A stretch of DNA of 32,000 bases from Candidatus Saccharimonadota bacterium (GCA_965227835.1 OZ245768.1:150001-182000), one strand, 5' to 3'; numbered from the stretch's first letter, positions 4,520 to 26,454 are shown. Translations and numbers: made by a program. The notes: generated from the letters alone by a model not told the origin.

Positions 4520-4594
<75 letters not shown>

Positions 4595-6711: not shown

Positions 6712-8328
6712 ATGTTAATTTATAATACTAAAACAAGAAAAAAGGAAATATTTAAGCCTATTTCAAGCAGGGAAGTGAAGGTCTATTTTTGTGGTCCTAC
6801 CCCATATAATTTTGCTCATATATGAAATTTGAAAACATATGTTTTTGAAGATGTGGTTGTAAAGACTTTGAGGTTTTTATGATACAATTTAAAAACTACT
6901 ATGAATATAACTGATATAGATGATAAGACTATTAGAGATAGTCAAAAAATGTTAGAGAGTCTATCTTCTTTCACAAAAAAATATTCCAAAGCTTTTTTGG
7001 AAGATATAGAAAAATTATGAATTAAAAAAGCAGATAATGTGGTTTTTATATCTAGTTTGATACCAGAAATGGTTAGAATGATTCAAACTATGCTCAATAG
7101 AAAAAATGCTTATTTTTGAGATGATTGAAGTATTTATTTTGATGTTTGTAGTTTTAAGAATTACTGAAAATTAGCAAATTTAGATATTTCTTGATTAAAA
7201 AAATCCGTAAGGATAGATAATGATGAGTATGGAAAAGAAGAAGCTTCTGATTTTGCCTTATGGAAAGCTTGGAAAAAAGAAGATGGTGATAATTTTTGGG
7301 AAGCAGAGTTTTTTTTACCAGATGAGTCTGAAAAACCTAACCTCCAGTCCATTCAAACCTTACCCTCAACCCAATGAACTAGCCCTCACCCTCAGCCTCT
7401 CTCCGGGCAAACCTCACCCCTAAACCTCTCCGAGCAAACCTCACCCCTAACCCCTCTCCTTAGAGGAGAGGGGGATAGAAAAGTTGTTATAAAATGAAGA
7501 CCTGGATGGCATATAGAGTGTAGTGCTTGTAATATGAAATATTTTTGAGCTCAGATAGATATACATATGTGAGGTATAGATAACTTATTTCCTCACCACC
7601 AAAATGAAGTTGCTCAAACAGAGAGTTGTACTAAAAAAGAATTTTCAAGATATTGGATTCATTGATGACATCTTAGTGTGGATGGTAAAAAAATGTCTAA
7701 GTCTCTTTGAAATTTTTATACTTTGAAGGATTTGGAGGATAAATTCAAAGATGTAGATAGATCTGTTTTATATAGAGCTATAAGACTTAGCTTTATGAAT
7801 TGAAAATATAGGGATAGTATAGATTTTAGTTTTGATAAACTTAACCAAATGCTTAATACTATTGTTGGACTGGATAATACTTTGAAAAATGTTTTTTACT
7901 ATAAATCTAGTTTGTGAGATGAAAATTCCAAGTCTAGTATTAGTTTTAGAAATAGTATGCAAGATTTCATAATTTCTTATACAAATGAGCTTGAAGATGA
8001 TTTTAATATACCCAATGCTTTGAGTGTTTTTTATAGTTTTGAAAAATTTGTGAATACTTGAATTAGAAAAAATGATTTTTCTTTTCCAGAGGTTAGTTCC
8101 ATTTTGGATATGTTTAAAACATTTAACGAGGTTTTATCTATAATGGATTTTGATATTTTAGATTTAAACAATTTTATTCCTAGTGATATTTCTTCAAAAT
8201 TGGAAAAAAGAAATGATGCTAAGAGAAAAAAGGATTTTGTTTTGGCTGATAGTTTGAGAAATGACATAGAGTCTCAGGGTTACAGAGTTATTGATGATAG
8301 AAATTGAAGTAGAGTTGAAAAATTTTAG
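6712..8328 (+). CDS. cysS: Cysteine--tRNA ligase with ~50-aa in-frame insertion, 538 aa
   Basis: [59 protein letters not shown] and KMSKSLGN are all present. The frame is continuous from ATG 6712 to TAG 8326-8328 with TGA as Gly. Confidence 0.95.
7399..7473 (+). repeat. GC-rich tandem duplication plus perfect hairpin inside cysS
   Basis: The 25-nt core ctctccg(g/a)gcaaacctcacccctaa occurs at 7399-7423 and 7426-7450 (period 27 nt, or 9 codons). It is followed by cccctctcc-ttaga-ggagagggg at 7451-7473. Line 7381-7440 hand-counts to 37/60 GC. Confidence 0.85.
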
Positions 8329-9884
8329 ATTTCAGGAGCTTCTTTTATTGAGGTTTTAATATTTGAGTTATTCAAAGCTTCTTTAAATTCATTGAATAAA
8401 AATCCATTTACAATACTTTCTCTTTCTACAAATTTATCTTTAAATAGTTTTATTATTTTGCTTTCTCCATGAGTGTTTACTTCTGCTATATCTCAACCTG
8501 CATTTCATCCATTTATCCTAATTATTTTAAACACCGTATCTTCTAGACTAGAATTTTCAGGTATTTCACCGAGTCATACTGATTTTATTATTTTTCCTAA
8601 AAATAGTTTTACCTCATTTTCATCAAGGTAGTTGCTGTCAGCTTTTATGTTTATACTTCATATAGATCTTAATATGTCTGATCTTATGTCCCATAATTCT
8701 TCAAGTCCTGTTCTTTCTAATACATTGTAAAAGTTTACTATGTTTTCCATGGCCTCAGGGCTTTTTTGTATTATTGCATATTCTTGTTTATTTATTCAAT
8801 TTATTTTTTCTCAATTTTGAGTTTCTATACTTATATTTCAGTTTTCATATATATTTAATTTGTGGGTTGTGTTTAGAGAATTGTTTGTTTCTTGGTTTTC
8901 GTCATTTAAGTTATATTCTTCATTTGTTACTTCACTATTTCTTTGTTCTTGTATTTGGGTTTTTAATTCAAATCTTTCATAGTTTATTTTTAGCCTTTTA
9001 TTATAATTTGCTAATTTCTTTTTAAGTATATCTAATAGTTCTTTTTTTTGTTGATCCAATGAGGCTTCACCTTCTAATTCTTCTATTAAAAATATTAATT
9101 GATTTTGATTTAGGTCATTGATACTAGTTATTCATTCTATACCTGTATCATAATCAAATAAGAGTTCGTTTTCTTTTATAAATTCAAGAAAAAATTGATT
9201 GTCTACTTCATTATCAATTATTGCATTTGATAAATCTAATTTAGATTCCATGAAATTACTACTTTTTTCTTTAAGTTCCACATGATAATCAATAAATTGA
9301 TTTATAATTCATTCTGAACCTTCCCAAATTTCTGGATTTATGTAATCAACAAGCATGTCTCTAATTTCTCCAATTGTGTATTTTGTATTTGGGTTTAGTA
9401 ATTCATCAATTAATTCTTGATTTATAAGTTCTTGATTTAATTTCTTTGATTCATGTTCTATGTTATATTCTCAATCACATGAAATATTTCTACTTTGTTT
9501 CAATCATTCTATATATCAATATAGTGCTGTTTTTATATCGTTTTTTACTTCATTAAAATTCTTCTCGGATTCAATAACATTATTCTCAAAATAAAGTACT
9601 TTACTAGGACCAGTTATTTCAGGTCTTTTATCTATATTTTTCAATTCATAAAATTCTCTTCTCAAATCTTCCAATTCATTTTTAGTGATTTCACTTTCAC
9701 TTTTTATAGCTTCTTTTATTTTTTCTTTCAAATCTGAATATTCTCTTTCTGCATTTTTATACCTATCTGATCTTGTTGTTGAACCTTGCTCAATTCTAGA
9801 CAATATTAAATTTCACTCCTCAATTAAACTTTGAGTAGATTTTTTTACCTCCTCGTTTGTATTTAAATAGTTTAAGTTTTCCAT
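8325..9884 (-). CDS. Hypothetical acidic, helix-rich protein, 519 aa
   Basis: The minus frame is open from ATG 9884 to TAA (complement of 8325-8327), with many in-frame TGA; every triplet was checked. It merges track ORFs 8838-9059 and 9516-9803. Its stop overlaps the cysS stop by 4 nt. Confidence 0.65.
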
Positions 9885-9974
9885 AGTTTTTATTTATTTT
9901 TTCTTTAATTTTAACATATACTTTTATTTTTTACAAATAACTGGCATAATATTTTCCTTTTGTCTTAAACTTTC

Positions 9975-10010
9975 ATAAAAAAAGAGCTCTCTTGATTTCA
10001 AGAGAGCTCT
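9975..10010 (-). terminator. Rho-independent terminator ending the six-gene operon
   Basis: A 12-bp perfect stem agagctctcttg / caagagagctct with a 4-nt loop. On the minus strand it is followed by TTTTTT, 19 nt past the TAG at 10029-10031. Confidence 0.75.
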
Positions 10011-10028
10011 TTAGTATTTCGGTTTTTT

Positions 10029-11720
10029 CTAGTTTGAAGAATAAGTTCTAGAAAAAGCCTGTTTTATTTGTTCATCCCAGTCTGATATAGATCCTTGAGG
10101 GTCTACCCAAACTGTTATGTTGTACCTAGGGTCTGTAATTGCTAGCTCTGGAAGTCCTCCTGCTAAATTTCCTTTTTGTGCTAGAGTTACAGCAGTTGAA
10201 AGAAAATAAAATCTTCTTTCTCCTGCAATATCACGAATATGAGGTCTATTTTCAACAACAGATGCTTGACGTCTATTTGATTCATCGACATACTGTTTTG
10301 GTTTTAGACTCTCGGAAGGGTCTTGTTTAGAGTCTGGAGTTAGTATATTACCATACCCAACCCAGTTATATTCTTTTTTTGAACCAGCGACGTCATCACC
10401 AATTGTAGAACATCCTGTAAGACGTTCTCCTTTATTGGAATGATGATAGTAGTATATTTTATCACTACTATCAACCGGTGCAAAAAGTGATACAGATAAA
10501 CCTGAACGAGCTGATATAAAAGGTTCAAGACAAAAATAAGCGAATAAACCTTTTTCTCCACTTTCATTTTCTTCAGATTTATTTAGTTGTTCCACATATT
10601 GCACAAAAGGTTGAGGATTTAGATCCCAAGAAGAATCGGGTATCCTGACATCACCTTCATGTGCTAAACCTGGAAATGGTCCCATAAATCCATTTTGAAA
10701 TCTAAAAGATGTAGCTTCAAATCTATGTACTTTTTGAGGTTTTAAATTTTGTCCTTTCAAAAAGTCATAGTTTTCTATATCTTCAGGGGAAACATATTTT
10801 CCCTCCCCCAAGAAAGTTCTAAGAATACCATCTATCCAATCTCTTTCTTTACATTGTTTGAGGATATAAACTCCCGCAAACTCTATTTTGGGAAAAAAGA
10901 TACCAGACCACTTAGACATTGAAACTACTTGTACGAAATCTCCTTTATCGTCTTTTACATACTTAACTCCTTCGGGAAAATAGCTAAGAAATTTCCAAGG
11001 ATTTAGACGTTTTTTGACAACGTTTAGAGTATTATTCCAGTACAAAAGACCTTCTCCGGAGGGAAAACATACATTTTCTATATCCTCGAAGTTTGGTGAG
11101 GGGCTCTCAGCTGATACTGAAAATATTTGATTTATATCTTGAGTCATTCTTCCCCATCTTTTATAGGGATAAATTTCTAAGTTAAATCTAATATTCCCAT
11201 TATCCATAATTCGATCTGGAATTTGTATAGACTCAGATTCGCTTATCTTTTTTGTTGCCAAGACCATCACAGAGTTCAATGGTTGTGGAGTTACTTTTGT
11301 TGTTAATGGTAGTTCATCTAGTTCTACCCAGTCTACATTTTGGTATTTAAGATAAGAAGAAATATATTGTGTTACACCAAAATATGTATATGGCACAATA
11401 CAAAATAAACCTATAATACCAAATGACCAAGCAGTTTTTTTAAGCTTTACTTTTGAAAGACCAATTGTTATTAGATATATTACTAACAACATAAATACAA
11501 CAAAGAGATACTCTCTAACAACTATAACATACTCATGCCATATAGACCTCAAAAGTATTAGTGTAATAAAAAGGAAAAACATAACTACACGAAAAATTTT
11601 ACTTTTCCATATGCTTTGTAGACCGTTTTTTATACCAGAACAAGTATTTCTTACTAACCAGTATATTGCTCCTTTCTCTTCCTCGTCTACTTTGTTTATG
11701 TCATTGTTTATGTCACTCAT
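10029..11720 (-). CDS. Island gene 6: membrane protein, three N-terminal TM helices plus ~440-aa probably extracytoplasmic domain, 563 aa
   Basis: The track ORF runs to 11747, but the ATG at 11720 (MSDINN) has AAGGAGG 6 nt upstream and gives the same 8-nt overlap style as the other junctions. TM segments are FRVVMFFLFITLILL, YLFVVFMLLVIYLITIGL and AWSFGIIGLFCIVPYTYFGV. TAG stop. Confidence 0.8.
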   Translation of the reverse strand: MSDINNDINKVDEEEKGAIYWLVRNTCSGIKNGLQSIWKSKIFRVVMFFLFITLILLRSIWHEYVIVVREYLFVVFMLLVIYLITIGLSKVKLKKTAWSFGIIGLFCIVPYTYFGVTQYISSYLKYQNVDWVELDELPLTTKVTPQPLNSVMVLATKKISESESIQIPDRIMDNGNIRFNLEIYPYKRWGRMTQDINQIFSVSAESPSPNFEDIENVCFPSGEGLLYWNNTLNVVKKRLNPWKFLSYFPEGVKYVKDDKGDFVQVVSMSKWSGIFFPKIEFAGVYILKQCKERDWIDGILRTFLGEGKYVSPEDIENYDFLKGQNLKPQKVHRFEATSFRFQNGFMGPFPGLAHEGDVRIPDSSWDLNPQPFVQYVEQLNKSEENESGEKGLFAYFCLEPFISARSGLSVSLFAPVDSSDKIYYYHHSNKGERLTGCSTIGDDVAGSKKEYNWVGYGNILTPDSKQDPSESLKPKQYVDESNRRQASVVENRPHIRDIAGERRFYFLSTAVTLAQKGNLAGGLPELAITDPRYNITVWVDPQGSISDWDEQIKQAFSRTYSSN

Positions 11721-12348
11721 TTTTTCCTCCTTTGCCGAAACTTTCAAGTTTATCTATATAGTACTTATCATTTGGTTCTTTGTCTTGAGTTGGGTATGCG
11801 TTATTTTTGTCCTCAAATTCCTGTTTTTTATTTTCACTATCTTTTTTAGTGAGAATGCTTTTTTTAATTGCATCTCCAGCGTCACCTGATTTTTCTATTA
11901 TGGTTTGTTTTGCTCTATCTCCAGCTTTTTGTATCTCATCTTTTAAATTTATTTTGCCTGTCTGGATATCATCACTTCTGTCCAGACCCCATTTAAAAGA
12001 ATCAACTAATGTGACAGCTAGAGGTGTAAATATAAAACCTATCCATATAAAGAAGTGTAGCAATACATATAATAGTAAATCTACATATAAAGGCATTGCA
12101 TCAGGAATCCAAAAAGTTATAAACTCAATTGTTGCTGCGAAAGGTGTTGCATTTATAAGTTTACGCTTAATTGTTTGCCCATACACAAAACCTTTATTAT
12201 CTTCCATTGTAATTCGATTTTTAGGAGAGTTTATAAGGTTATGAAACCATATATAAAACTTTCTAAAAAGACCTTTTTTTTGATCTTTTACTCCTATGAA
12301 CATACCAATTACAATAGAAGTAATAGTCCATCCAATTATTTCATTCAT
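11713..12348 (-). CDS. Island gene 5: small membrane protein with charged Gly/Asp/Lys-rich C-terminal tail, 211 aa
   Basis: AGGAG SD. Hydrophobic segments are IIGWTITSIVIGMFIGV and PLYVDLLLYVLLHFFIWIGFIFTPLAVTLV, followed by a hydrophilic tail (GDRAKQTIIEKSGDAGDAIKK...). It ends at TGA (11713-15) in an ATGAGTGA overlap with gene 6. Confidence 0.8.
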   Translation of the reverse strand: MNEIIGWTITSIVIGMFIGVKDQKKGLFRKFYIWFHNLINSPKNRITMEDNKGFVYGQTIKRKLINATPFAATIEFITFWIPDAMPLYVDLLLYVLLHFFIWIGFIFTPLAVTLVDSFKWGLDRSDDIQTGKINLKDEIQKAGDRAKQTIIEKSGDAGDAIKKSILTKKDSENKKQEFEDKNNAYPTQDKEPNDKYYIDKLESFGKGGKNE

Positions 12349-13603
12349 AATTAACTCCTTTGTAGTGATTCATAATTCTCCAAATTACCCATTTCCTTTT
12401 TGATTTAGACCAAGTAAAATATTGTTTGTAAAACTTTTCTTTGTTAAATCTATACAGTTGTATAACTTTTTCAGGAAATAGGAATGTTAGAAGTATATTT
12501 ACAGCTTGCTTAAATCCTGGGTTAACCTTTGTTGGACGAAGTAGTAAACCTCTAAGTTCTTTAGATAATTCATTTACTTCTTTTCCCATTCTAAGCGACT
12601 GAATTAGTTTCTCAATTTCGAAATAAACCTCTGGAATATCTTTTTCATACTCTATAAGGTATGATTTTTTCTGAGTACTTGGTATTTCTGAATATTCTAG
12701 ATTTTCAGGGTTTTTGTTACAAACCACATCAGCTAGTATATCATCTTTCATTCTTTCCAATTCATTTAAATTAGAACTGTAGAATCCTAAGTCCAAAGTA
12801 AGAATTCCAAATTTTTCTAGCTTTTCTACTAGATTATCTTCATCTATACTCATAACTAGTAGGTCTTTATAAGGACTTTCTAGTATTTGATTATCTTGTT
12901 TTTCTACTCTAATCATCAAGGTTTTGTCTTCGCTTCCAAAGTCACGAAATACAAATGTCCCTCCATAATTTCTAGTGAAAAACGATGAAGCTTCATCAAA
13001 AAATATGGGATGAAGTAATATATTCCTTCGTCTTAAATCACCGTGTTGTTCAGAGCTTTCTATTAGCTTTTTTCTGACTTCGGGATCTTGCCACATATCT
13101 TCACTTTTTTCGAAATCAGCTACTAATTTTTTTTGTTGTCTTGCTATTTCTTCTATCTTGTTTGGTGTTGAAGGAATAACTTGGTAATAACCAACCATTA
13201 ACAGATCAAATGGAGTTGTGAATCTAGAAATACCATTTTCTATATCCAAGCATACTCCTGACATGGTTGTTATATCCATTAAAGGTTTTTTAAGTTCATG
13301 ATATACCCTTTCTATAAGAAAGGAATCAAAAGAATAATGACGAAAATAAAGAGATGCTTTGGCCTGTTCTACACTTAGTATAATACCAACTGTATTACTA
13401 GGACCGTGAGTCAGATACATTTCATCATCTTTTTCCTTTGATATATCAGGTGACCATCCTAATTTATCTATACTAAAACTTTTAAGCTTAGTTGTAGGTA
13501 AACCTAGATGTTTAAGGCATTGGTTATACCTTTCAACCATTTCTTCGGTGTTTACATCGAAGAGATTCGCTCCTATGAGCTCTGCTTTTTTTAAATGTTT
13601 CAT
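12341..13603 (-). CDS. Island gene 4: hypothetical protein, 420 aa
   Basis: Uninterrupted standard-code ORF with AGGAG 7 nt upstream. It ends at TGA (12341-43) in an ATGAATGA overlap with gene 5. No motif recognised. Confidence 0.8.
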   Translation of the reverse strand: MKHLKKAELIGANLFDVNTEEMVERYNQCLKHLGLPTTKLKSFSIDKLGWSPDISKEKDDEMYLTHGPSNTVGIILSVEQAKASLYFRHYSFDSFLIERVYHELKKPLMDITTMSGVCLDIENGISRFTTPFDLLMVGYYQVIPSTPNKIEEIARQQKKLVADFEKSEDMWQDPEVRKKLIESSEQHGDLRRRNILLHPIFFDEASSFFTRNYGGTFVFRDFGSEDKTLMIRVEKQDNQILESPYKDLLVMSIDEDNLVEKLEKFGILTLDLGFYSSNLNELERMKDDILADVVCNKNPENLEYSEIPSTQKKSYLIEYEKDIPEVYFEIEKLIQSLRMGKEVNELSKELRGLLLRPTKVNPGFKQAVNILLTFLFPEKVIQLYRFNKEKFYKQYFTWSKSKRKWVIWRIMNHYKGVNYE

Positions 13604-13628
13604 TTAAATCTCCTAGTTTGTGAATTTG

Positions 13629-13663
13629 GAGTAAGGAGGGATTTATCCCTCCTTACTCTTTTT
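13629..13663. other. 13-bp perfect GC-rich hairpin between island genes 3 and 4
   Basis: gagtaaggaggga-ttta-tccctccttactc. The T-run follows on the plus strand only, so this is not a classical terminator for the minus-strand operon. Confidence 0.7.
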
Positions 13664-13689
13664 GCAATACCAGAGAAATATATGACTCT

Positions 13690-15621
13690 TTAAGAGGTTC
13701 TTCTTCTAGCCTCTGCTTGAATCCTCATATGATCTATAGTTTGTTCAACCTTTCGTTCAAAATCTTTGTTAGATATTTGAGCTAGGTTGTCAAAATAAAA
13801 TACAGCTTCTTCAAGATATATGTCCACAAAGGACTTCCCTTGAAGGCTAGATCTTATCAAATCTATAATCATTGATTTCTTTTCATCATAATCTTTTTTG
13901 AAAAAGATTAGAGGATCATTGAGCCATTCATCTGGGAAGTCAAAGTCAAAGATTCTAGTCTTGACAGCTGACTGTATATTTCTTTTATCACGAGATGTGT
14001 ATATGAATTTACTTGCTATTTGTGTATCAAGATAGGCAAAAAATTCGGGAGAGTTTTCCTCGTGCTTTTTCCTAGCTTTTTCCAAAATTTCAGCTATAAG
14101 CTCTACTTTAGATGTAGATTTTCTTTCATACTCTTCTTTAATTTTTTCAGTTAAAGATTGAGCTGACATATACTTGTAGCTTTTTGGAGTAGAAAAATCA
14201 GTAAATCCAGGTATAAGTTTTTCAATAGGTTTAATCAAACCTATATAATCTTGATCGAGAAAGTCTTCTTCTGTCTTAGCTCCAGCCATATGAGTACGAC
14301 CTTGCACACGACTTAAAACGGCTTTATCAATTTTTTCTGGAAGATTTGTATATAGGTTTATTAAGTTATTTCCTCTATCTATTGCATATGCTCCTTCTGT
14401 CATTCTCAAAAAAACTCCAACGACTTCTGAAACACCTGCACTTACACCTTGTGATGATCTATCTTGTAGATTATTTTCGGCATCATCTATGGGTGCAAAT
14501 ATGATATGCTTAGGATCATTTAGTATGGGATTGAACCATGCTATAGCTCTCTCTGCACTACCACCTTGATATGTTGAAACAATATTATCAGGGAAGGGGT
14601 GAAATAAGAAAGGTATACCTAGCTCTTTACAACGATCACTTAGTTCAGATGCAATTGCTGCTATTTCCATACTCTTACCAGTTCCTGGAGGACCATATAC
14701 TAGTTTTGTCCTAAAAAAACCACCTAGATCTTTCAAGGGATTTCTCTGTGTTGTAGGATCGTAGCACATAAGCCCCATAATACTTCTTTTAGCCGAATGT
14801 TTTGACTCTACATTTCCTACTATATCACCCCATTCTACTCGGTTAAACTCTACATGGCTTGTATGTCCGGGAAGACTAAATTCAAAACCCTGTATTGAAA
14901 ACTCACTATCTTCAAGTTTATATCCCGAAGATTTAAATATTTCAATATATTTAAATGCATTTTCTTTTGCTTTAATTTCGTCTATTATAGCTTGAAAATA
15001 CAATAGAGTCATTTTTAGAAAAGTTAGTTCATCATGTACCTTACCAGATTTTTCTAAGTAAGATCCATAGTAGAACAAAACACATTTACGAGCCATAGAA
15101 GAATTAACTAAACTCAATTCGGGAATTCCTTCAAATTCCATATGTATTGACTCTAGTTCATTATCCTTGTAGTTGGATAGTTCATGTACTACATAATATG
15201 CAGATACAAAAGCCATTATAGCTGCTGAAGTTGTAGCTTTCTCCCTAAATTCAGATTGCCTTTGTTGAGATAATCCTCTTTCTTTTTGCATCACATCTAG
15301 ATTAGATGCTTTATCAAAAAGTTCAGATATTTTGGAACCAAGCATAAAAGCTTCACGGACAGTTAAGTAAGCTTTGTTAACTCCTTCTGTCATTGCAAAA
15401 CCTTTTTTGCTTATATTGATTGCAAAGTTGGCAATTGAAATGGTTTCTTCTTTACCACCTGTCATTACTGAATGAGCAACATCTAAATTACTACTACTTG
15501 TGTTAGCAAATGAACTTTTTGCTGACTTCCAATCAGTTTTTTTCATGAAACCATCAACAATTCTTGAAAATTCTTTGAGGGATTCATGATCAACTTTATA
15601 CAAATTAGATTTTTCAGACAT
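13690..15621 (-). CDS. Island gene 3: classical AAA ATPase (Vps4/katanin/spastin-like core) with ~290-aa helical N-domain, 643 aa
   Basis: Walker A is LVYGPPGTGKS (14671-14694) and the Walker B region is IIFAPIDDAE (14476-14505). STYQGGSAERAIAWF resembles SKYxGESEKLVRxLF. TNLPEKIDKAVLSRVQGR resembles the ATNxPxxLDxAxxRRF second region of homology. TAA stop. Confidence 0.85.
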   Translation of the reverse strand: MSEKSNLYKVDHESLKEFSRIVDGFMKKTDWKSAKSSFANTSSSNLDVAHSVMTGGKEETISIANFAINISKKGFAMTEGVNKAYLTVREAFMLGSKISELFDKASNLDVMQKERGLSQQRQSEFREKATTSAAIMAFVSAYYVVHELSNYKDNELESIHMEFEGIPELSLVNSSMARKCVLFYYGSYLEKSGKVHDELTFLKMTLLYFQAIIDEIKAKENAFKYIEIFKSSGYKLEDSEFSIQGFEFSLPGHTSHVEFNRVEWGDIVGNVESKHSAKRSIMGLMCYDPTTQRNPLKDLGGFFRTKLVYGPPGTGKSMEIAAIASELSDRCKELGIPFLFHPFPDNIVSTYQGGSAERAIAWFNPILNDPKHIIFAPIDDAENNLQDRSSQGVSAGVSEVVGVFLRMTEGAYAIDRGNNLINLYTNLPEKIDKAVLSRVQGRTHMAGAKTEEDFLDQDYIGLIKPIEKLIPGFTDFSTPKSYKYMSAQSLTEKIKEEYERKSTSKVELIAEILEKARKKHEENSPEFFAYLDTQIASKFIYTSRDKRNIQSAVKTRIFDFDFPDEWLNDPLIFFKKDYDEKKSMIIDLIRSSLQGKSFVDIYLEEAVFYFDNLAQISNKDFERKVEQTIDHMRIQAEARRRTS

Positions 15622-16684
15622 AGTTTAAGTTTCCTTCTTTGTCAAATGAAAATATTCTTGATTTGTCAAAAATATCTCCTGCTTGTTGATGAATTTCATA
15701 TGGTAAAATTACAATAGATTCTCCATTTGAAATGCCTCTACTGTATAATTCAGTATCATATTCGGGAACATGGAAAATTTCTCTTTTTTGTTCTCCTCTA
15801 AAAAATGAGTTACTTATTACCTGTTTTGCGGAGAATACATGTTCATGTCTCATAAGTATTATGAACCTCCTACCTGTATCTCCTAAAGATAAAAGAGAAT
15901 TTATTTCATCATTAGAATGAGAACTAAAACCTTCTGCATAAAAAGGACCAATAGATATTCTTTTGATGATTTTTGGGTGAACTTTTCTTAACTCTTCGTC
16001 AATTGATACGGCAACTATATTTAGATTTGGTGCCCTTGTACCATTTGATTTTACGGTTTTAAAAAACTCTTGCATTGCCTCTTCAGACTCATGAAAGACT
16101 TCATCGTATGATGTCTCAAAAACCATAATATATATATAAGGGATGTTAGTTGAATAATCAAAAGTTGCCCAATAATACATATATTCTTTATCATTATTTA
16201 GTCTTATCAAATTTCCTGGAGAAAATAAATGAAACTGTTCTTTAGAAAATAACATATCTAAAAATGTCCTTTCAGACATCTTTTTGAGTAGATCTATTGG
16301 ATCCTCGTTATTCTCAAAAATAGAGTCTATTATTTTTCTCTTGATTGTTAGTTGTGGTAGTAATCCTTTTATTTTAGATTCACCTTCAGTCATATCTGTT
16401 TCAAGAGATGAGAATTCATAGTGAGAAGGAAATCCTGAGTCACAAGAGTTAATTTTTAACTCTTTATCACTATATAGGTATTTCATCCTGAGACATTGCA
16501 TTGAATTCAAAAATCTTTTCAGATAATTCCTAACTATTTCCTCTTCTTCGTTTTCACTCACAGATGTTTTTTTGTAAATTTTCAGTAATGTTTCAAAAGA
16601 GACACCAATTTTTGCAAAATATCTTTCAAATTCATCTCCTTGTAGAGGTAAATTTTCTAAGTTATCACTAATTTGTGTATTCAT
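15614..16684 (-). CDS. Island gene 2: hypothetical protein, 356 aa
   Basis: Uninterrupted standard-code ORF with a GAGG-type SD. It ends at TGA (15614-16), overlapping the next ATG by 8 nt (ATGTCTGA). No motif recognised. Confidence 0.8.
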   Translation of the reverse strand: MNTQISDNLENLPLQGDEFERYFAKIGVSFETLLKIYKKTSVSENEEEEIVRNYLKRFLNSMQCLRMKYLYSDKELKINSCDSGFPSHYEFSSLETDMTEGESKIKGLLPQLTIKRKIIDSIFENNEDPIDLLKKMSERTFLDMLFSKEQFHLFSPGNLIRLNNDKEYMYYWATFDYSTNIPYIYIMVFETSYDEVFHESEEAMQEFFKTVKSNGTRAPNLNIVAVSIDEELRKVHPKIIKRISIGPFYAEGFSSHSNDEINSLLSLGDTGRRFIILMRHEHVFSAKQVISNSFFRGEQKREIFHVPEYDTELYSRGISNGESIVILPYEIHQQAGDIFDKSRIFSFDKEGNLNYV

Positions 16685-16705
16685 AATTTTAATCCTCTAT
16701 TATTG

Positions 16706-16738
16706 TGAGAAAAAGAGAGGGACACTAGGCCCCTCTCT
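16706..16738 (-). terminator. Intra-operon terminator/attenuator-like hairpin after island gene 1
   Basis: The minus strand reads agagaggg-gcctagtgt-ccctctct followed by TTTTT. It lies between the stop at 16772 and the next ATG at 16684. Confidence 0.55.
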
Positions 16739-16771
16739 GTTGTTTTTTGTGATTGAAGCTATTTTCATCAT

Positions 16772-18052
16772 CTAGGATTGTTCAGCCCAATGAGAAAACT
16801 GGCTTTCAGTAGGGTCTATTCCATATTTTGATGTCATTTTCTCTACCATATCTTTTATATTAGAATCAGCTTTTGAAATATGCTGAGTAAGAGCACTTTG
16901 AGTTTCTTGCATTTTGCGAAGACGATCTGGATGCGCTCCAATTTTATCTGCCATTATCTTATCAGAAGCAACTGTAGTTTGTGCCATATATTTAGCATTT
17001 TTATCATCTACTTCTGCTCCTAAATCATCAAGTTTTTTAGCAATTTCTTGATCCGAAGATGCTTTCATTGCTTCTAACCTTGATTTGAATGTAATGACTC
17101 GTTCTTCGGTATCAGATTCAAGAGTTTTAATCCAAATTAACTGATTGTTACGGAGTTTTTTCTGAGCTGCCTCGTGAATTTCCAACTCTTTAACAAACTT
17201 TTCTTTGGACTGAAATACTCCCAATGCTACATCTCTAGTACCTTTTGCATCTTCAAGCTTTGATTTTAAGTCTGATATTTCTTTCTCTTGAGCTGTATAC
17301 TCTGGACTACCATTAGGCATACCATTGAGGGTTTGTTCAGCATCATATAGATTGTTTTCTATATCTGATACATCATCCTCAGCATTTTTAAGTATTACTG
17401 CTTGTCTTTCTTTTTCAGCAAAAGCTTCTGCTTTTCTTGCTTCTACAGCTTTGACTTGCTTATCTATTTCTTCCTTACGATCTTTCATTATAGATATTGT
17501 CTTAGCAACACGATTTTGAAAATCTTGCAGGGAATCTTCCATAGAAGCAGATAGCAATCTTTGCCGCATAAGTCTGTTTGCTTCAACTTTTGCTTGATTA
17601 AGTTTTTCTTTTGACATTTCCAAGTTAGCTTCAGCTTCCTCGATTCTGCTTTTTTTGAAAACCCAAGAGTTTTTTGCATCTTCCAGTAATTGTTCAGCTT
17701 TAGCTAATTCAGCTTTAGCACTATTAATTAACCGTTGTTCTTCAGGGGTTAATTGAGTTAGTTGTTCATAAGATCCACCTAATTGCTCAATTATTATGTT
17801 TAGACCAAATACTGCCTCAGCTAAATCTTCTTCTTCTTTAACTACACTTTTTCGTAGTTCATCCATTCTTGTTTCAAGAATTTCTGTAACTCTATCTCTT
17901 TCTTGATCATTCTCGATTTTTGAGGCTTTTTCAAGTTCAAGTTGAGTTTGTTCCATTTCAGCAAGTATATTACTTTCTCTGACTTTTTGCATATGTTGTT
18001 CAGAGCTTTGAAGTAATTCCTGCATTTGAGAGGTTTTTTGCATATCAGTCAT
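16772..18052 (-). CDS. Island gene 1: long alpha-helical coiled-coil protein, 426 aa
   Basis: Uninterrupted standard-code ORF with AAGGAG 8 nt upstream of the ATG and a TAG stop. The sequence is E/K/Q/A-rich with heptad-like periodicity throughout. No enzymatic motif and no TM segment. Confidence 0.85.
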   Translation of the reverse strand: MTDMQKTSQMQELLQSSEQHMQKVRESNILAEMEQTQLELEKASKIENDQERDRVTEILETRMDELRKSVVKEEEDLAEAVFGLNIIIEQLGGSYEQLTQLTPEEQRLINSAKAELAKAEQLLEDAKNSWVFKKSRIEEAEANLEMSKEKLNQAKVEANRLMRQRLLSASMEDSLQDFQNRVAKTISIMKDRKEEIDKQVKAVEARKAEAFAEKERQAVILKNAEDDVSDIENNLYDAEQTLNGMPNGSPEYTAQEKEISDLKSKLEDAKGTRDVALGVFQSKEKFVKELEIHEAAQKKLRNNQLIWIKTLESDTEERVITFKSRLEAMKASSDQEIAKKLDDLGAEVDDKNAKYMAQTTVASDKIMADKIGAHPDRLRKMQETQSALTQHISKADSNIKDMVEKMTSKYGIDPTESQFSHWAEQS

Positions 18053-18117
18053 AATACTTCTCCTTTTGACTATATATTTTCGGGTTATTTTAAAGAACTC
18101 ATTATTCTATATCTATA

Positions 18118-18148
18118 TATTTAGATAATTTAAAAAAATATCTAAATA
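18118..18148. promoter_or_regulatory. 10-bp perfect inverted repeat upstream of the island operon (candidate operator)
   Basis: tatttagata (18118-27) and tatctaaata (18139-48) are separated by 11 nt, 66-96 nt upstream of the gene 1 ATG. Confidence 0.35.
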
Positions 18149-18284
18149 CTAATATATAAAGAATAACTTAATATCTAATTTACAATTCAGTCAATATAAG
18201 TCAAGTTTTTTTTGCTTTTTTTTGTTTTTTTATTATAAAATAGAAAAATTTTCAGCTATATTTCTTATATTAAAGGGAAAAAAT

Positions 18285-18327
18285 AAAACTATTTAATATT
18301 AACAAAAACTTAATATTAAATAGTTTT
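18285..18327 (-). terminator. Terminator of grxB
   Basis: An 18-bp perfect stem aaaactatttaatattaa / ttaatattaaatagtttt with loop caaaaac. A T-rich tract follows on the minus strand. Confidence 0.7.
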
Positions 18328-18352
18328 TTTATAAACTTCCACAATTTTTTTC

Positions 18353-19003
18353 TTAAAATGCTCTATCACTATACAAATCAACATTTGATTTTCTAGATAT
18401 TTTTTCTAAATAACTTTTAACTTTTGGTGGGAAATTTAGGTTTTTTACACAAGTTAGACTACGAAGTATAGGGAATAGACATATGTCTTCGTAGGTGTAT
18501 GTATTTTTTGCAATAAAATTTTCTTGTGTTTCAAGTTCTTCCAAATATTTCTCCATTTTTTTGATTAGTTGTGGTGTTTCTTGTAAACGAGTTTCAAAAT
18601 TTCATATAAACATTTCTTTTTTGTTTTTGAAGTATTCTATGTCTTTTTGTGTTTTAAATTCTTCTAATCACATTTTTATAAATCTTGGTATTACTAATTG
18701 ATAGGTAGTTGCTCATACACTATTTAACCAAGTTTGAATTTCTTCCTGTTCTTCTTTTTCAAGGATTTTGTCTCCATAGTTTTCATCTAAATATTCTACT
18801 ATATCAAGACTTTCTATCATATATTTTTTGTCTTCATACTCCAAAATTGGTACTAGTTTTTTTCATACTAGGTCATAGTGAGATTTTTCATCTGCATTTT
18901 GTATTATTATGCTTTCATATGGTATGTTTTTTAGTCCGAGTATCATTCTTACTCTTATGCAATATGGGCAATGATCGTAGTGGTAGAGTTTTAGTTGTGT
19001 CAT
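18353..19003 (-). CDS. grxB: Glutaredoxin 2, 216 aa
   Basis: LKLYHYDHCPYCIRVRMILGLKNIP, LVGKKLVPIL and LFPILRSLT are collinear with E. coli Grx2 (KLYIYDHCPYCLKARMIFGLKNIP, MVGQKQVPIL, LFPLLRNLT). Open from ATG 19003 with TGA as Gly (checked). Confidence 0.9.
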
Positions 19004-19105
19004 AGTTTTTTGGGGTTATTTTTTAATGCGGGTAATTAAATTTTTATTTTGGAGATTAATTTGTATTATATGAAAAATTATTTTATTTTCTAATTTTAAA
19101 GTAGT

Positions 19106-22100
19106 ATGGAAACACAAAGTAAATCCTTCTCTAGTTTTACAAACCTGTATGAATTAAGTAAGACTTTAAGATTTGAGTTGAATCCAGTGGGAGAGACTCA
19201 AAAATTACTTGATGAAAATCAAGTGTTTCTCACTGATAAAATAAGACAAAAAAAATATGAAGAAATAAAACCTTTTTTAGATGAATTTCATGGTGATTTT
19301 ATAAAATTTTGTCTTTGAGATTTAAGTTTGGATTTTCAAGATTATAAGGAATCTTTGAATAAATATCAAAAAGATAAAAAAAGTAAGGAATGAGAAAAGA
19401 GAAAACAAATTTCAGAAAAGAATTTAAGAGAAAGTATAAGAGAGAAATTTGATTCAAAAGTTATAGAATTTTTAGAAACTTTTTGAAAAGTTGAGATTTT
19501 TAGCTGAAAAAAAGAAAAAATAAAAGTAGTCCTTGAAAATATCTGAGAAATTGAATTTTCTAAGAATAATCATGAATTTCTTTTTGAAATTTGAATTTTT
19601 GATTTAATGAAAAAGAAGTTTGAGTGAAAATGAGATATTTATGTTACAAATAAAGAAACTTGAGAAATCTATAAAAATAAAAAAACTTGAAAAGATATAA
19701 CTATTTTTGATGATTGGAATGGTTGGCTAGGTTATCTTACAAAATTTTTTAAAACAAGAAAGAACTTATATAAATCTGACACCTCAACGGCTTTAGCTAC
19801 AAGAATAATAGATCAAAATTTGAAAAAGTATTGTAATAATTTAGATATTTATAAAAAATTATTAGAAAGAGAAGAATTAAAAAATAGGTTTAAAATCTTA
19901 GAAGAAGATTTTTGAATAAATTTGGAGGATTTTTTTAGTTTGGGAAAATATAATGGTTGTATATTACAAAGTGATATACAAAAATATAATGATATTATTT
20001 GATGAAAGGTTGTTGATAAGAATAAAAAAATTCCATGAATAAATGAACATATAAATAAATATAGGCAAGACTCTTGAGAAAAATTATCATTTTTAGAAAA
20101 ACTTGATAAACAAATTTTAGCTTGATGAAAAGATAGTTTCATAGAACAGATAAAAGATGAAGAAGATTTTAAAAATATTTTAAGTGATTTCTATAATGAT
20201 TCTGTAAAAAAGGTAGAAATTTTGACTCAGATTTTTGAAAATTTGAAAAATTATAATGAAGAAGATTATAAAACTATATATTTCTCAAAAGAAGCATTTA
20301 ATACTCTTTCTCATAAATTTACAGATCAAGTTTTAGTTTTTGAAAAATTAGTTTTTGAAGAGTTGTTACAATATAAATTAGTTGAAAAGAAGCATTTTGA
20401 TAAAAAAGAGGAAAAATATAAATTTCCTGATTTTATAGCATTATACTACATAAAAAAATGATTAGAAAAATATAGTAGTGAAGATTTATTCTATAAACTA
20501 AGGTATTATGAAAATGAGATAATAGAAAAAAATAGTGAAAATATTTGGAATAAATTTTGTAGTATTTTAAGCTATGAGTTTAAAGCTTTAATTTCAAATA
20601 AAATTATAAATCAAAATGGAGAAGAGGTAGAAATTTGATTTGATATTTCAAAAGATAAATTAGAAAAGATTTTAGATAATTTTTCACTTTGAGAAAAAAA
20701 TAATGGAGCAATAAAAGATTTTGCAGATATAGCGAGGAATATTTATCAAATGTGAAAGTATTTTGCCTTAGAGAAAAAAAGAGAATGGAATCCTAACGAT
20801 TTTTATACCCTGAATAGGGATTTTTATTCTGAATGAATAGAAAATAAATCTGGATATGGAGATTTCTATAATGAGGCTTATGAACAAATCATAGTTCCTT
20901 ATAATTTGATGAGGAATTTTATTGCTAAAAAACCTTGGGAGGATAGTAAGAAGTGGAAATTGAATTTTGAAAATTCAAGTTTACTCAAGGGTTGGGATAA
21001 AGAATTTGAAAGTTATTGAGCTTATATTTTTGAAAAAGAATGACTTTATTATCTATGACTTATAAATGGAACAAAGCTCAATAAAGAAGAAATTGAAAAG
21101 TTATATATTCTAAACTCTCAAAATATAGCTAAAAGGTTTGTGTATGATTTTCAAAAACCAGATAATAAAAATACACCTAGATTATTTATTAGATCAAAAT
21201 GAGATAGTTTCGCTCCAGCAGTAGAAGAACTTAATTTGCCAATAAATGATATCATTGATATTTATGATAATGAACTTTACAAGACTGATAAAAATAATCC
21301 AAATACACACAGGGAAAGTTTAGAAAAACTTATTGATTATTTCAAATTATGATTTTCAAAACATAAATCTTACAAACATTTTAATTTTGTTTGGAAAGAA
21401 AGTAGTGAATATAAAAATATTGCTGATTTTTATAGGGATGTAGAAAAATCATGCTATAAACCATATTGGGAAGATATAAATTTTGATGAATTAAAAAATC
21501 TTACAAAAGAGAAAAGAGTGTATTTATTTCAAATTTATAATAAAAATTTTGAACTAGATAAAAGTATAGCTCCTGAAAATTATATTTTTAAATGAAATGG
21601 GAGAGATAATGTTCATACAATGTATTTTAAGTGAGTATTTTCAAAGTATAATATAGAAAATATTAGCTGAGTGAATATAAAACTAAGTTGATGATGAGAA
21701 ATATTTTTTAGACCAAGAGCGATTGATGAAGAAATTGATGTGAAAAGAAAAACAAAAAGAGATGTTATTAAAAATAAAAGATATACTCAAGAAAAAATTT
21801 TTTTACATTTTCCAATTCAAGTAAATTTCAAAGAAAATAAAGCTTTGAGTTTTAATAATTATGTAAATAATTTTTTAGCAAATAATCCTAACATAAATAT
21901 TATTTGAATAGATAGATGAGAAAAGCATTTGGCTTACTATTCTGTTATAAATAGGAAGCAAGAAATTATTGAAAGTGGAAGTCTAAATTATATTTATCAG
22001 AAAGATAAAGATTGAAATATTATTAAAAAATCAGAAAAAGAAATAAAAGAAAAAAGAAATAGTGAGTGAAAAATCATTGACTATGAATTAGTTGAAACTT

Positions 22101-23239
22101 GAAAGATGTTAGATTATGAAGATTATAAGATTTTGCTTGATTATAAGGAGAAAAAAAGAAAATTGCAAAGACAATCTTGGAAAGAAGTGGAACAAATAAA
22201 AGATTTAAAAAAATGATATATTTCAGCAGTAGTAAGAAAAATAGCAGATTTGATTATTGAACATAATGCAATAGTTGTCTTTGAAGATTTGAATATGAGG
22301 TTTAAACAAATAAGATGATGAATTGAAAAAAGTACCTACCAACAATTGGAAAAAGCTTTGATAGATAAATTGAATTTTTTAGTAAATAAATGAAAGAAAA
22401 ATCCAGAAGAAGCTGGGAATTTATTAAAGGCTTTTCAATTAACAGCTCCAGTATGAACTTTTAAAGATATGTGAAAACAAACTTGAATTATATTTTATAC
22501 ACAGGCAAGTTATACTTCAAAAATTGATCCAGTAACAGGTTGGAGACCGAATTTATATATTAAAAAACAAAAATCTGAAATTAATAAATCTAGTATTCTA
22601 AAATTTGATTCTATTGTTTGGAATAGTGAGAAACATATTTTTGAAATCACGTATGATCTAGAAAAATTTAAATCAGAAAATACAAAAAAACAAAATGATA
22701 AAAAAGAAGAAAAATTAAATAAAACGAAGTGGACTTTATCAACTTGAGTAGAAAGGTATAAATGGAATAGATATCTCAATAATAACAAATGATGATATGA
22801 ATATTTTGCTGATTTAAGTCATAACTTTAAAGAACATTTTGAAAATTATTGAATAAATATTTTTTGAAATATTTTAGATCAAATTGAAAAATTAGGAGAA
22901 AAATGAAATGAGAAATTTTTTAGTGGATTTTTAGATTTATTTAAACTTGTTTGTCAGATTAGAAATACAAATAAAGATGAAAAATGAAACGAAAATGATT
23001 TTATTTTGTCTCCTGTATACCCATTTTTTGACAGTAGAAAAGAAAATAATATTTGAGTAAAAAATTGAGATGATAATTGAGCTTATAATATTGCAAGAAA
23101 ATGAATAATTATTTTAGAAAAACTTTGAGATTGGAAAAAAGAAAATGATGTAAAAATTAAAAACTGAGAAAAAGAAATATATCCAGATTTATTTGTCTCA
23201 AATATTGCTTGGGATAATTTTACTCAAAATAATAGATAA
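19106..23239 (+). CDS. cas12a: Cas12a (Cpf1), type V-A effector, 1377 aa
   Basis: The frame was checked codon by codon and has no TAA/TAG until 23237-23239. My hand count gives ~58 in-frame TGA. N-terminus FTNLYELSKTLRFELNPVG; then LYLFQIYNKNF; RuvC-I IIGIDRGEKHLAYYSV; RuvC-II AIVVFEDLNMRFK; QTGIIFYTQASYTSKIDPVTGW; RuvC-III/Nuc DFILSPV...GDDNGAYNIARKG. Confidence 0.95.
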
Positions 23240-26224: not shown

Positions 26225-26454
26225 ACTTTTTGATTTTTCATAATTTTTCTTAAAATAAAAATAAGTTACTAAATGTTCTTTTACATTTTATGCCTTTTGA
26301 TAAAATTTTATCAAAAGTGGAAGTTATAGTGTAGTTTTTAAAAAAATGTAAACCTAGGTCTTAATTTTTTTAAGTTCCTATTGAAAAGCCAAAAGTCATA
26401 ATTTTGAAAAATAAATTATTTGTATCTTATTGGCTTTTCATAAACAAAATAGCT
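26225..26454 (+). promoter_or_regulatory. CRISPR leader
   Basis: AT-rich 230 nt between cas2 and repeat 1. Contains the 24-nt palindrome cttttgataaaattttatcaaaag (26294-26317) and a 10-bp inverted repeat tgaaaagcca / tggcttttca (26382-91 / 26431-40). Confidence 0.6.

What the first reader, a model, noticed from the sequence alone, without database searches (positions are those of the whole stretch)
9975..18150. An 8-kb six-gene operon written in the standard genetic code inside a TGA=Gly genome
Six consecutive minus-strand genes (426, 356, 643, 420, 211 and 563 aa, about 2,600 codons) contain no in-frame TGA, and all their glycines are GGN. The flanking native genes use TGA roughly once per 25 codons (cas1: 13 in 319; cas12a: ~58 by hand count). 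The block is visibly GC-richer: lines 10081 and 14401 both count 24/60, against 14/60 for line 2401 in the PBP gene. Every gene in the block has a canonical AGGAG-type SD, which the native genes (PBP, cysS, grxB, cas12a, cas4, cas1, cas2, phr) lack. The block has its own GC-rich terminator. It sits between the grxB terminator and the promoter side of a native gene. I see no integrase, transposase or flanking direct repeats. The simplest reading is recent horizontal import from a standard-code donor.
Basis: seen in the sequence. Interest (0 to 1): 0.9.

Follow-up and report, generated by a model that had tools for sequence, protein, structure and literature searches.

The report
Standard-code operon recently inserted into Gracilibacteria
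An 8.3-kb six-gene operon written in the ordinary genetic code was recently pasted into the chromosome of a bacterium that reads TGA as glycine; a sister genome still shows the empty site, so this is a clean natural case of gene transfer across a genetic-code boundary, though not a new kind of biology.

Summary
Ten native genes use TGA for 214 of 297 glycines. The six minus-strand block genes use it for 0 of 130 (P about 1e-72). Three block genes end in TGA, all six have AGGAG-like ribosome-binding sites (0 of 13 native genes do), and the block has higher GC. TGA = Gly was checked on CysS, and the host is a Candidatus Gracilibacteria genome.

The key new evidence is an empty site. A relative, L034, has flanks 92-96% identical and in the same order, but the unknown gene and grxB are adjacent there. 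The insert is window ~10015-18332, with only a TTTAG/TTTAT microhomology and no mobility genes.

The nearly host-like third-position codon usage must come from a low-GC donor. Too little time has passed since the split from L034 (12% four-fold divergence) for it to have arisen in place.

The same cassette (coiled-coil, unknown, classic AAA+ ATPase, DUF6638, two membrane proteins) occurs in standard-code bacteria. It also sits TGA-free in at least two other TGA-recoded contigs, which suggests repeated imports. Its function is unknown.

Verdict: recent horizontal import is supported. Interest is moderate.

The parts
10015..18332 (.). Inserted DNA (about 8.32 kb): six genes plus a 280-bp AT-rich upstream region. 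It is absent from the syntenic site of the close relative L034.
   Evidence: blastn of window against L034: L034 12638-13013 matches window 9637-10014, and L034 13009-13879 matches window 18328-19197. Junction alignment.
10010..10014 (.). Left junction microhomology, TTTAG. In L034 the single copy is TTTAG.
18328..18332 (.). Right junction microhomology, TTTAT. This imperfect copy is the only flanking repeat.
9981..10012 (-). GC-rich 14-bp-stem hairpin followed by a T-run. This is the ancestral host grxB terminator. It now lies 17 nt after the stop of the last block gene and presumably terminates the block transcript.
   Evidence: Terminator scan. RNA fold -21.8 kcal/mol, z -6.3. The identical hairpin lies directly after grxB in L034 12980-13011.
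10029..11720 (-). g563: membrane protein with N-terminal transmembrane helices and a beta-rich domain. Stop TAG, SD AGGAGG. An alternative TTG start lies at 11747.
   Evidence: AF2 pLDDT 87.5. No PDB fold match. No Pfam hit.
11713..12348 (-). g211: small membrane protein. It ends in TGA inside an 8-nt ATGnnTGA overlap. Under code 25 it is read through for 38 more codons.
12341..13603 (-). g420: DUF6638 family protein. It ends in TGA in an 8-nt overlap. Under code 25 it is read through for 26 more codons.
   Evidence: Pfam PF20343, 130.9 bits against a cut-off of 27..
13690..15621 (-). g643: classic-clade AAA+ ATPase (Walker A GPPGTGKS) with its own N- and C-terminal helical domains. Stop TAA.
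   Evidence: Pfam AAA 45.9 bits. PDB profile hits to Cdc48/p97/AFG2/Vps4. The AF2 model matches the AAA modules of FIGNL1, spastin and Msp1 at 3.4-3.9 A.
15614..16684 (-). g356: conserved protein of unknown function. It ends in TGA in an 8-nt overlap. Under code 25 it is read through for 3 more codons (GKI).
16772..18052 (-). g426: coiled-coil protein rich in Glu, Lys and Gln. First gene of the operon. Stop TAG, SD AAGGAG.
18053..18281 (-). AT-rich leader and putative promoter region carried by the insert. Promoter function is inferred only; the promoter-like hexamers are not above chance.
18282..18330 (-). Perfect AT-only hairpin (18-21-nt arms) followed by a T-run, at the edge of the insert and immediately downstream of the grxB stop. 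It probably now ends the grxB transcript. This role is inferred.
   Evidence: Inverted repeat I4. RNA fold -17.2 kcal/mol, z -4.9.
18353..19003 (-). Native grxB (4 TGA Gly codons, no SD). It has been separated from its original terminator by the insert.
8325..9884 (-). Native gene of unknown function (13 TGA). In L034 its orthologue is the direct neighbour of grxB.

Best explanation
The window comes from a Candidatus Gracilibacteria chromosome that reads TGA as glycine. About 8.32 kb of foreign DNA (window ~10015-18332) was inserted between the stop codon of grxB and its terminator. The insertion looks like illegitimate recombination: a 5-nt microhomology and no integrase, transposase or terminal repeats.

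The insert carries a complete, widely distributed six-gene cassette: coiled-coil protein, unknown protein, classic-clade AAA+ ATPase, DUF6638 protein and two membrane proteins. The cassette evolved in an organism where TGA is a stop and Shine-Dalgarno sites are used. That explains the absence of in-frame TGA, the three TGA gene ends in ATGnnTGA coupling overlaps, and the six SD motifs.

The insertion is younger than, or about as old as, the split from relative L034. The block's low GC3 and ATA-rich codon usage are therefore the donor's own, so the donor was a low-GC bacterium.

In the new host the genes remain translatable, because a standard-code gene contains no codon that code 25 reads differently except TGA stops. 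The only predicted damage is C-terminal read-through of 3, 26 and 38 residues, and loss of termination-reinitiation coupling.

Inferred function of the cassette: a membrane-associated machine in which a hexameric AAA+ unfoldase remodels or extracts proteins together with the coiled-coil, DUF6638 and membrane partners.

What is shown: the TGA statistics, the code, the empty site, the synteny and the phylogenetic placement. What is inferred: the direction of the event (insertion, not deletion), the nature of the donor, expression in the host, and function.
For: - TGA counts: 0 of 130 Gly codons in the block against 214 of 297 in native genes. The depletion is frame-specific.
- TGA = Gly, from the CysS alignment.
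- Host lineage from CysS homologues named Ca. Gracilibacteria. The same 1,489,121-bp contig carries CysS, the AAA protein and g563.
- Empty site in L034 with collinear flanks 92-96% identical.
- Window and L034 differ at 12.3% of four-fold sites. Only 3 of 160 aligned Gly codon pairs switch between TGA and GGN. At most about 3 GGA-to-TGA changes are therefore expected in the block since the split.
- SD motifs in 6/6 block genes and 0/13 native genes.
- Three TGA ends coincide with the C-termini of orthologues.
- Six-gene synteny in standard-code genomes.
- The NJ tree puts the window's AAA next to a GC-47% standard-code copy.
- AAA assignment. DUF6638.
Against: - No reads are available, so neither junction is verified physically.
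- The junction alone cannot tell insertion in this lineage from precise deletion in L034.
- No close donor was found. The best AAA match is 72% identical and GC-richer, so the low-GC TGA-stop donor is inferred and not observed.
- Synonymous codon usage of the block is surprisingly host-like (Ile ATA 0.56 against 0.61; GC3 0.20 against 0.15).
- The same block is TGA-free in two other recoded contigs. This could point to something more than three lucky recent imports.
- Expression and function in the host are untested.
Confidence: 0.85

Rival explanations
1. The block is a code-agnostic, frequently exchanged cassette, or a cassette under selection to stay TGA-free. It circulates between Gracilibacteria and standard-code bacteria (possibly their hosts or prey, or via TGA-free phages or plasmids). 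TGA is kept out so that it works under either code, or keeps working when a phage interferes with TGA decoding.
For: - TGA-free copies occur in three TGA-recoded contexts that are only 52-63% identical to each other and sit in different neighbourhoods: window, L031 and L006.
- The L006 and L032 copies use only TAA/TAG stops.
- No W/X at conserved Gly columns in 120 AAA and 40 g563 homologues, whereas the CysS control shows it in 38 of 120.
- Codon usage is close to the host's.
- TGA-free, code-11-compatible phages of Gracilibacteria are described in the literature (PMC10746230).
Against: - The window copy is not code-neutral. Three of its six genes end in TGA and would be read through.
- There are no mobility genes or terminal repeats.
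- No relatives were found in IMG/VR or in GenBank phages. Only distant homologues (25-28% identity) occur on large non-mobilizable replicons.
- Retention of SD motifs in hosts that do not use them argues for youth and not for adaptation.
- Zero TGA is already compatible with the short time since the L034 split.
Confidence: 0.1
2. The block was already present in the common ancestor of the window genome and L034, and was precisely deleted in L034. It is foreign but older than the split.
For: The imperfect 5-nt direct repeat at the two ends could mediate deletion as easily as insertion. No outgroup with conserved synteny downstream of cysS was available to decide the direction (L036).
Against: Native GGA and TGA codons interconvert at roughly the pace of four-fold sites (2 of about 21 GGA pairs at 12.3% divergence). 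A markedly older block should therefore have gained some TGA among its 61 GGA codons, should have lost SD motifs, and should have converted TGA ends to TAA. None of this is seen.
Confidence: 0.07
3. Assembly artefact: a fragment from a co-occurring standard-code organism was joined into the Gracilibacteria contig.
For: The source is probably a metagenome-derived genome, and no read data could be inspected. The block differs in GC, code and SD usage.
Against: - A chimera would need two misjoins within one 20-nt stretch of a single intergenic spacer, with host sequence resuming exactly where it left off.
- The source contig is 1.49 Mb.
- Independent assemblies from other samples also link this cassette physically to TGA-rich genes (L031 from Logan, L006/L007 from ENA).
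- The block's ATA-rich, low-GC3 codon usage is close to the host's.
Confidence: 0.03

Closest known systems
Horizontally acquired genomic islands (compositional islands with an empty site in a sister genome)
   Same: The block deviates in GC, in codon (TGA) usage and in translation signals. It is absent from the syntenic site of a close relative. Its nearest homologues lie in unrelated lineages.
   Different: There is no integrase, transposase, tRNA target or real target-site duplication. The clearest marker of foreignness is the genetic code itself, not k-mer bias. Third-position composition is already close to the host's.
Code-11-compatible (TGA-free) phages predicted to infect Gracilibacteria and Absconditabacteria (Liu, Jaffe, Chen, Bor, Banfield, mBio 2023, PMC10746230)
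   Same: This is DNA associated with code-25 hosts that lacks in-frame TGA and can be read under either code.
   Different: This is a chromosomal six-gene cellular operon without phage genes, and it has no relatives in the viral collections. Half of its genes use TGA as their stop. The phages described in that paper rely on other stops and often have several different stops close together.
Classic-clade AAA+ protein unfoldases (Cdc48/p97, Vps4, spastin/FIGNL1, Msp1, proteasomal Rpt)
   Same: g643 has the AAA module, including the Walker A motif. It passes the Pfam AAA threshold, and its model superposes on these ATPases at 3.4-3.9 A over about 200 residues.
   Different: It has its own ~300-residue N-terminal and ~200-residue C-terminal helical regions with no detected MIT, Cdc48-N or other known adaptor domain. 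Sequence similarity is low (E about 1e-9). It is fixed in an operon with DUF6638 and other uncharacterised partners.
hyp-hyp-AAA-DUF6638 core cassette annotated as hypothetical proteins in Vibrio and Rhizobiaceae secondary replicons
   Same: The first four genes follow the same order, with the AAA protein followed by the DUF6638 protein.
   Different: Identity is only 25-28%, and the two membrane proteins are not adjacent there. Function is equally unknown.

Membership tests
Genetic code 25 host (TGA = Gly) | In-frame TGA codons in conserved genes align with conserved glycines | tested here: met
   At least 10 of about 14 aligned TGA positions in CysS match conserved Gly in PDB CysRS, including the HIGH and KMSKSLGN motifs. 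TGA makes up 72% of Gly codons in native genes.
Genetic code 25 host (TGA = Gly) | tRNA-Gly(UCA) present and release factor 2 absent | not testable with these tools
   Neither gene lies in the 32-kb window. The only tRNA found is tRNA-Phe.
Horizontally acquired genomic island | Absent from the orthologous site of a close relative | tested here: met
   In L034 the unknown gene and grxB are adjacent, with flanks 92-96% identical to the window.
Horizontally acquired genomic island | Composition and coding signals deviate from the host's | tested here: met
   GC 0.33 against 0.25. TGA 0/130 against 214/297. SD 6/6 against 0/13. TGA used as a stop in 3 of 6 genes against 0 of 10. GC3 and most synonymous choices are close to the host's.
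Horizontally acquired genomic island | Phylogeny incongruent with the host lineage | tested here: met
   The AAA NJ tree places the window next to a GC-47% standard-code contig, with proteobacterial copies in the same subclade. This rests on a single-protein distance tree only.
Horizontally acquired genomic island | Mobility machinery (integrase or transposase), a tRNA target, or flanking direct repeats | tested here: not met
   No such Pfam, NCBIfam or PHROG hits. Only a 5-nt imperfect microhomology flanks the insert.
Code-11-compatible TGA-free mobile elements of Gracilibacteria (PMC10746230) | No in-frame TGA | tested here: met
Code-11-compatible TGA-free mobile elements of Gracilibacteria (PMC10746230) | Gene ends rely on non-TGA stops, so the products are the same under both codes | tested here: not met
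   Three of six genes end in TGA. Code 25 adds 3, 26 and 38 residues.
Code-11-compatible TGA-free mobile elements of Gracilibacteria (PMC10746230) | Phage hallmark genes, or relatives on viral contigs | tested here: not met
   There are no PHROG hits apart from generic AAA matches. IMG/VR holds no close relatives: the AAA scan returned only distant hits of 25-31% identity and the g563 and DUF6638 scans returned none. GenBank phages gave no match.
Classic-clade AAA+ ATPase | AAA domain above Pfam threshold, with a Walker A motif | tested here: met
   PF00004 scores 45.9 bits against a cut-off of 21.2. GPPGTGKS is invariant across homologues.
Classic-clade AAA+ ATPase | Structural match of the ATPase module to Cdc48, spastin or Msp1-type unfoldases | tested here: met
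   Foldseek probability 1.00. RMSD 3.4-3.9 A over 188-227 alignment columns to FIGNL1, spastin and Msp1.
Classic-clade AAA+ ATPase | Hexameric ring with pore loops that thread substrate | not tested
   Only a monomer model was built.
DUF6638 (PF20343) | Full-length match above the gathering score | tested here: met
   130.9 bits against a cut-off of 27, covering residues 12-414.
ESCRT-III/Vps4 or PspA-type membrane remodelling system | Snf7, PspA or Vipp1 family polymer subunit next to the ATPase | tested here: not met
   g426 and six orthologues give no Snf7 or PspA_IM30 Pfam hit at E <= 1. The PDB profile search finds only generic coiled coils. A fold-level test was not possible.
ESCRT-III/Vps4 or PspA-type membrane remodelling system | MIT domain on the ATPase | tested here: inconclusive
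   Pfam finds no MIT domain. The Foldseek hits cover only the AAA module. The N-terminal domain was not searched on its own.
Known anti-phage defence systems (PADLOC) | Match of the component proteins to a defence-system model | tested here: not met
   Only weak generic AAA hits, E > 7e-4.

The most novel reading that the evidence does not exclude
The AAA/DUF6638 cassette may be a code-agnostic module that is repeatedly exchanged between TGA-recoded Gracilibacteria and standard-code bacteria, possibly their hosts or prey. On this reading it is kept free of TGA sense codons by rapid turnover or by selection. One possible reason for selection is that the cassette must stay translatable when TGA decoding is perturbed during phage attack. 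That would make it a marker of ongoing gene flow across the code boundary, not a one-off import.
Probability: 0.1. Interest if true: 0.8.

Novelty: new member of a known kind. Interest (0 to 1): 0.5.

Why it matters
An altered genetic code is often described as a firewall against gene exchange. This locus shows the firewall is one-sided in nature: a standard-code operon has entered a TGA=Gly genome intact.

Because a sister genome keeps the empty site, the event is dated, its boundaries are defined, and the state of the operon on arrival is visible. That state includes the donor's stop codons, ribosome-binding sites and coupling overlaps.

The locus offers a natural experiment on what happens next: read-through tails of 3, 26 and 38 residues, decay of SD motifs, and gain of TGA codons.

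It also flags an uncharacterised, widely spread AAA+/DUF6638 membrane cassette. Recoded CPR bacteria appear to have picked it up more than once.

Tried and rejected
- **Exact-protein look-up of the source contig** failed for the AAA protein. The source genome could therefore not be read beyond the window.
- **The genome-contig scan** returned only two distant loci and not the source genome.
- **The single metagenome-contig scan** was wasted, because the pattern chosen was the generic Walker A motif.
- **Cluster look-up** gave no organism names for the nearest relatives.
- **Function of four proteins:** profile searches of g426, g356, g420 and g563 against PDB sequences found nothing significant. 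Per-member Pfam scans found nothing consistent. PADLOC, NCBIfam and PHROGs added nothing beyond AAA.
- **g563 fold:** the confident AF2 model has no PDB fold neighbour, with TM below 0.25.
- **Rfam** found no leader RNA in five loci.
- **CRISPR spacers** of the adjacent array do not target the window.
- **L036,** a more distant Gracilibacteria contig, has lost synteny downstream of cysS and could not separate insertion from deletion.
- **L006 CofD:** its four TGA codons fall at non-conserved positions. TGA is clearly sense there, but the amino acid is not established.
- **In-place amelioration** was considered as the source of the host-like GC3 and rejected. Only 12% four-fold divergence separates the window from the genome with the empty site.
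- **CysS length difference to L034:** I first read it as an internal indel. It is an N-terminal gene-call difference.

Full report

Yes. With the standard bacterial code, six of the only ten ORFs of at least 100 aa in the window are the six minus-strand genes between 10.0 and 18.05 kb. When only TAA/TAG count as stops, the flanks resolve into long genes that carry one TGA every 25-40 codons. These genes are MurL-like, PBP, a membrane protein, CysS, an unknown gene, grxB, Cas12a, Cas4, Cas1 and photolyase.

TGA is glycine, not tryptophan. In CysS the TGA codons fall on conserved Gly of solved CysRS structures, including HIGH (here HI-TGA-N) and KMSKSL-TGA-N.

Counting codons:
- Ten native genes hold 214 TGA against 83 GGN, so TGA is 72% of Gly codons.
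- The six block genes hold 0 TGA against 130 GGN.
- P(0) is about 1e-46 per codon, or about 1e-72 per Gly codon.

The depletion is frame-specific, since TGA occurs 40 and 160 times in the other two frames of the block. GC is 0.30-0.35 in the block against 0.21-0.26 around it. SD-like motifs sit 8-15 nt upstream of all six block genes and of none of 13 native genes.

Each of these ends lies in an 8-nt ATGnnTGA overlap with the next gene. All ten native genes end in TAA or TAG.

**2. Host and source**

Homologues of the native CysS that carry names are all Candidatus Gracilibacteria. The database copies of CysS, the AAA protein and the last block gene all sit on one 1,489,121-bp contig held by NCBI/ENA. 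The window therefore comes from a near-complete Gracilibacteria genome.

**3. The empty site**

The second-best CysS hit (85% identity) led to contig L034 from another sample. L034 has the same gene order as the window: MurL, PBP, small ORFs, membrane protein, CysS, unknown gene, grxB, Cas12a. It is 92-96% identical in nucleotide sequence.

In L034, however, the unknown gene and grxB are neighbours. L034 12638-13013 aligns to window 9637-10014, and L034 13009-13879 aligns to window 18328-19197. The extra DNA in the window is therefore ~10015-18332, or 8.32 kb.

The junctions share only TTTAG/TTTAT. No terminal inverted or direct repeats exist, and no integrase or transposase is encoded.

The block was therefore dropped between the grxB stop codon and the grxB terminator, and now borrows that terminator. 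The insert carries an AT-only hairpin plus T-run (18282-18330) that now follows grxB.

**4. How old is it?**

Window and L034 differ at 12.3% of four-fold sites. Among 160 aligned Gly codon pairs, only three switch between TGA and GGN, and two of those are GGA/TGA.

Scaling this rate to the 61 GGA codons of the block gives at most about three expected conversions since the split. Zero TGA is thus what a post-split insertion predicts. A much older residence would not predict it.

The same number has a second consequence. The block's synonymous usage is already close to the host's: GC3 0.20 against 0.15, and Ile ATA 0.56 against 0.61. Residual differences appear only at Arg CGT, Leu TTA and Asn AAC. 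This similarity cannot have arisen in place, so the donor must itself have been a low-GC organism. This is an inference. No donor-like sequence was found, and the nearest AAA homologue is 72% identical and lies on a GC-47% contig.

**5. Where does the cassette come from?**

All six genes have syntenic orthologues elsewhere. These include:
- a GC-59% proteobacterial contig with type II secretion and LapAB neighbours (L001);
- a Gammaproteobacteria MAG (L011);
- Chitinophagales (L004);
- Ca. Buchananbacteria (L005).

Many unnamed Bacteroidota and Bdellovibrionota proteins also match the AAA protein. The orthologues end where the window genes meet their TGA. The read-through tails of 3, 26 and 38 residues have no counterpart in them, so these TGAs are donor stop codons.

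A distance tree of the AAA protein puts the window copy next to the GC-47% standard-code copy. The copies from recoded contigs are scattered among standard-code ones.

**6. Recurrence**

- **L031** is a GC 20-30% contig from an unrelated run. It carries a MutS fragment with 15 TGA and a HolA-like gene with 10 TGA and no GGN. Its TGA codons align to conserved Gly of E. coli MutS. Next to these genes lies the same cassette without a single sense TGA (94 GGN), and its DUF6638 gene again ends in TGA.
- **L006/L007** (GC 38%) have a CofD gene read through four TGA codons, next to a TGA-free cassette that uses only TAA stops.

SD motifs precede the cassette genes in these contigs too. The neighbourhoods differ, and the AAA proteins are only 48-63% identical to one another.

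In a control, database CysS proteins from recoded genomes show W at conserved Gly columns in 38 of 120 cases. None of the 120 AAA homologues or 40 g563 homologues does. So at least three recoded lineages hold this cassette in a TGA-free state.

The plain reading is repeated, recent, independent import. Turnover, or selection against TGA, cannot be excluded, and that is the most novel reading left open.

TGA-free phages compatible with both codes have been predicted for Gracilibacteria (PMC10746230). This cassette, however, has no close relatives in viral collections or phage genomes, and the window copy is not code-neutral at its gene ends.

**7. What does the cassette do?**

This is not known.
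- **g643** is a classic-clade AAA+ ATPase. It passes the Pfam AAA threshold, gives profile hits to Cdc48/p97, AFG2 and Vps4, and its AF2 model superposes on FIGNL1, spastin and Msp1 modules at 3.4-3.9 A.
- **g420** is a DUF6638 protein.
- **g426** is a long coiled-coil protein.
- **g211 and g563** are membrane proteins.
- **g563** folds confidently (pLDDT 87.5) into an N-terminal helical membrane bundle plus a beta-rich domain with no PDB neighbour.

Nothing matches known defence systems, phage families or PspA/ESCRT-III profiles. A four-gene core, hyp-hyp-AAA-DUF6638, is annotated as hypothetical in Vibrio secondary replicons.

My working model is inferred from domain content only. It is a membrane-associated AAA+ unfoldase or extractase working with coiled-coil and DUF6638 adaptors.

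**8. Rivals**

- **Misassembly** would need two misjoins within one intergenic spacer, with host sequence resuming exactly. It is further contradicted by independent assemblies that link the cassette to TGA-rich genes. Reads were not available.
- **Deletion in L034** instead of insertion here cannot be excluded from the junction. An informative outgroup was not found. The block would then be older, yet it shows no TGA gain, no SD decay and no stop conversion.

**9. Verdict**

The interpretation, a recent import from a TGA-stop donor, is supported. Three corrections apply: the terminator is the host's, the boundaries are about 10015-18332, and the donor must have been low in GC.

This is a well-documented natural case of a known process, horizontal transfer across a code boundary in the permissive direction. 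It is not a new kind of system. The recurrent TGA-free state of one uncharacterised cassette in several recoded genomes is the part worth following up.

Noticed in passing
window 7306-7494 (inside cysS, 6712-8328 +): CysS carries an in-frame insertion of about 60 aa relative to solved CysRS structures. The DNA there is GC-rich and palindromic (…CCCCTCTCCTTAGAGGAGAGGGG…). It looks like a small repeat element inserted in frame.
   Followed up: partly
window 19100-23239 (cas12a) against L034 13788-17914: Window and L034 are about 95% identical up to window 19197. Identity then drops to about 66%, and L034 Cas12a is called in two pieces (1103 + 263 aa). The CRISPR-Cas cassette has diverged or been exchanged far faster than its flanks.
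   Followed up: partly
window 8325-9884 (-): The unknown gene next to the insertion site is only 81.6% nt identical to its L034 orthologue. Neighbouring genes are 92-97% identical, so this gene is evolving fast.
   Followed up: no
window 26454-28603: A type V-A CRISPR array with 34 repeats (36 nt, ending AATTTCTACTTTTGTAGAT) and spacers of 26-27 nt. No spacer matches the rest of the window, the inserted block included, at up to 4 mismatches.
   Followed up: yes
L031 2535-3824 (-): In the second recoded contig, an MscS-like gene adjacent to the cassette is also TGA-free (15 GGN) and has an SD. The imported island there seems larger than the six genes.
   Followed up: partly
L006 1147-1564: Upstream of the cassette in L006 there are three copies of a GTCCAAAGyAGTGA-like motif and several short hairpins. 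This may be a regulatory leader. Rfam finds nothing.
   Followed up: partly
window 10029-11747 / database protein P0244: The public gene call for the last block gene is 487 aa, with the start pushed downstream. This is as expected if the caller read the preceding gene through its TGA. Annotation of this island under code 25 or code 4 distorts three or four of the six genes.
   Followed up: partly
window 4127-4468 (+) and tRNA-Phe 4520-4594 (-): A small 113-aa ORF without TGA sits beside the only tRNA gene in the window. L034 has a similar small ORF at the corresponding position. It is probably native and too short for the lack of TGA to be informative.
   Followed up: no
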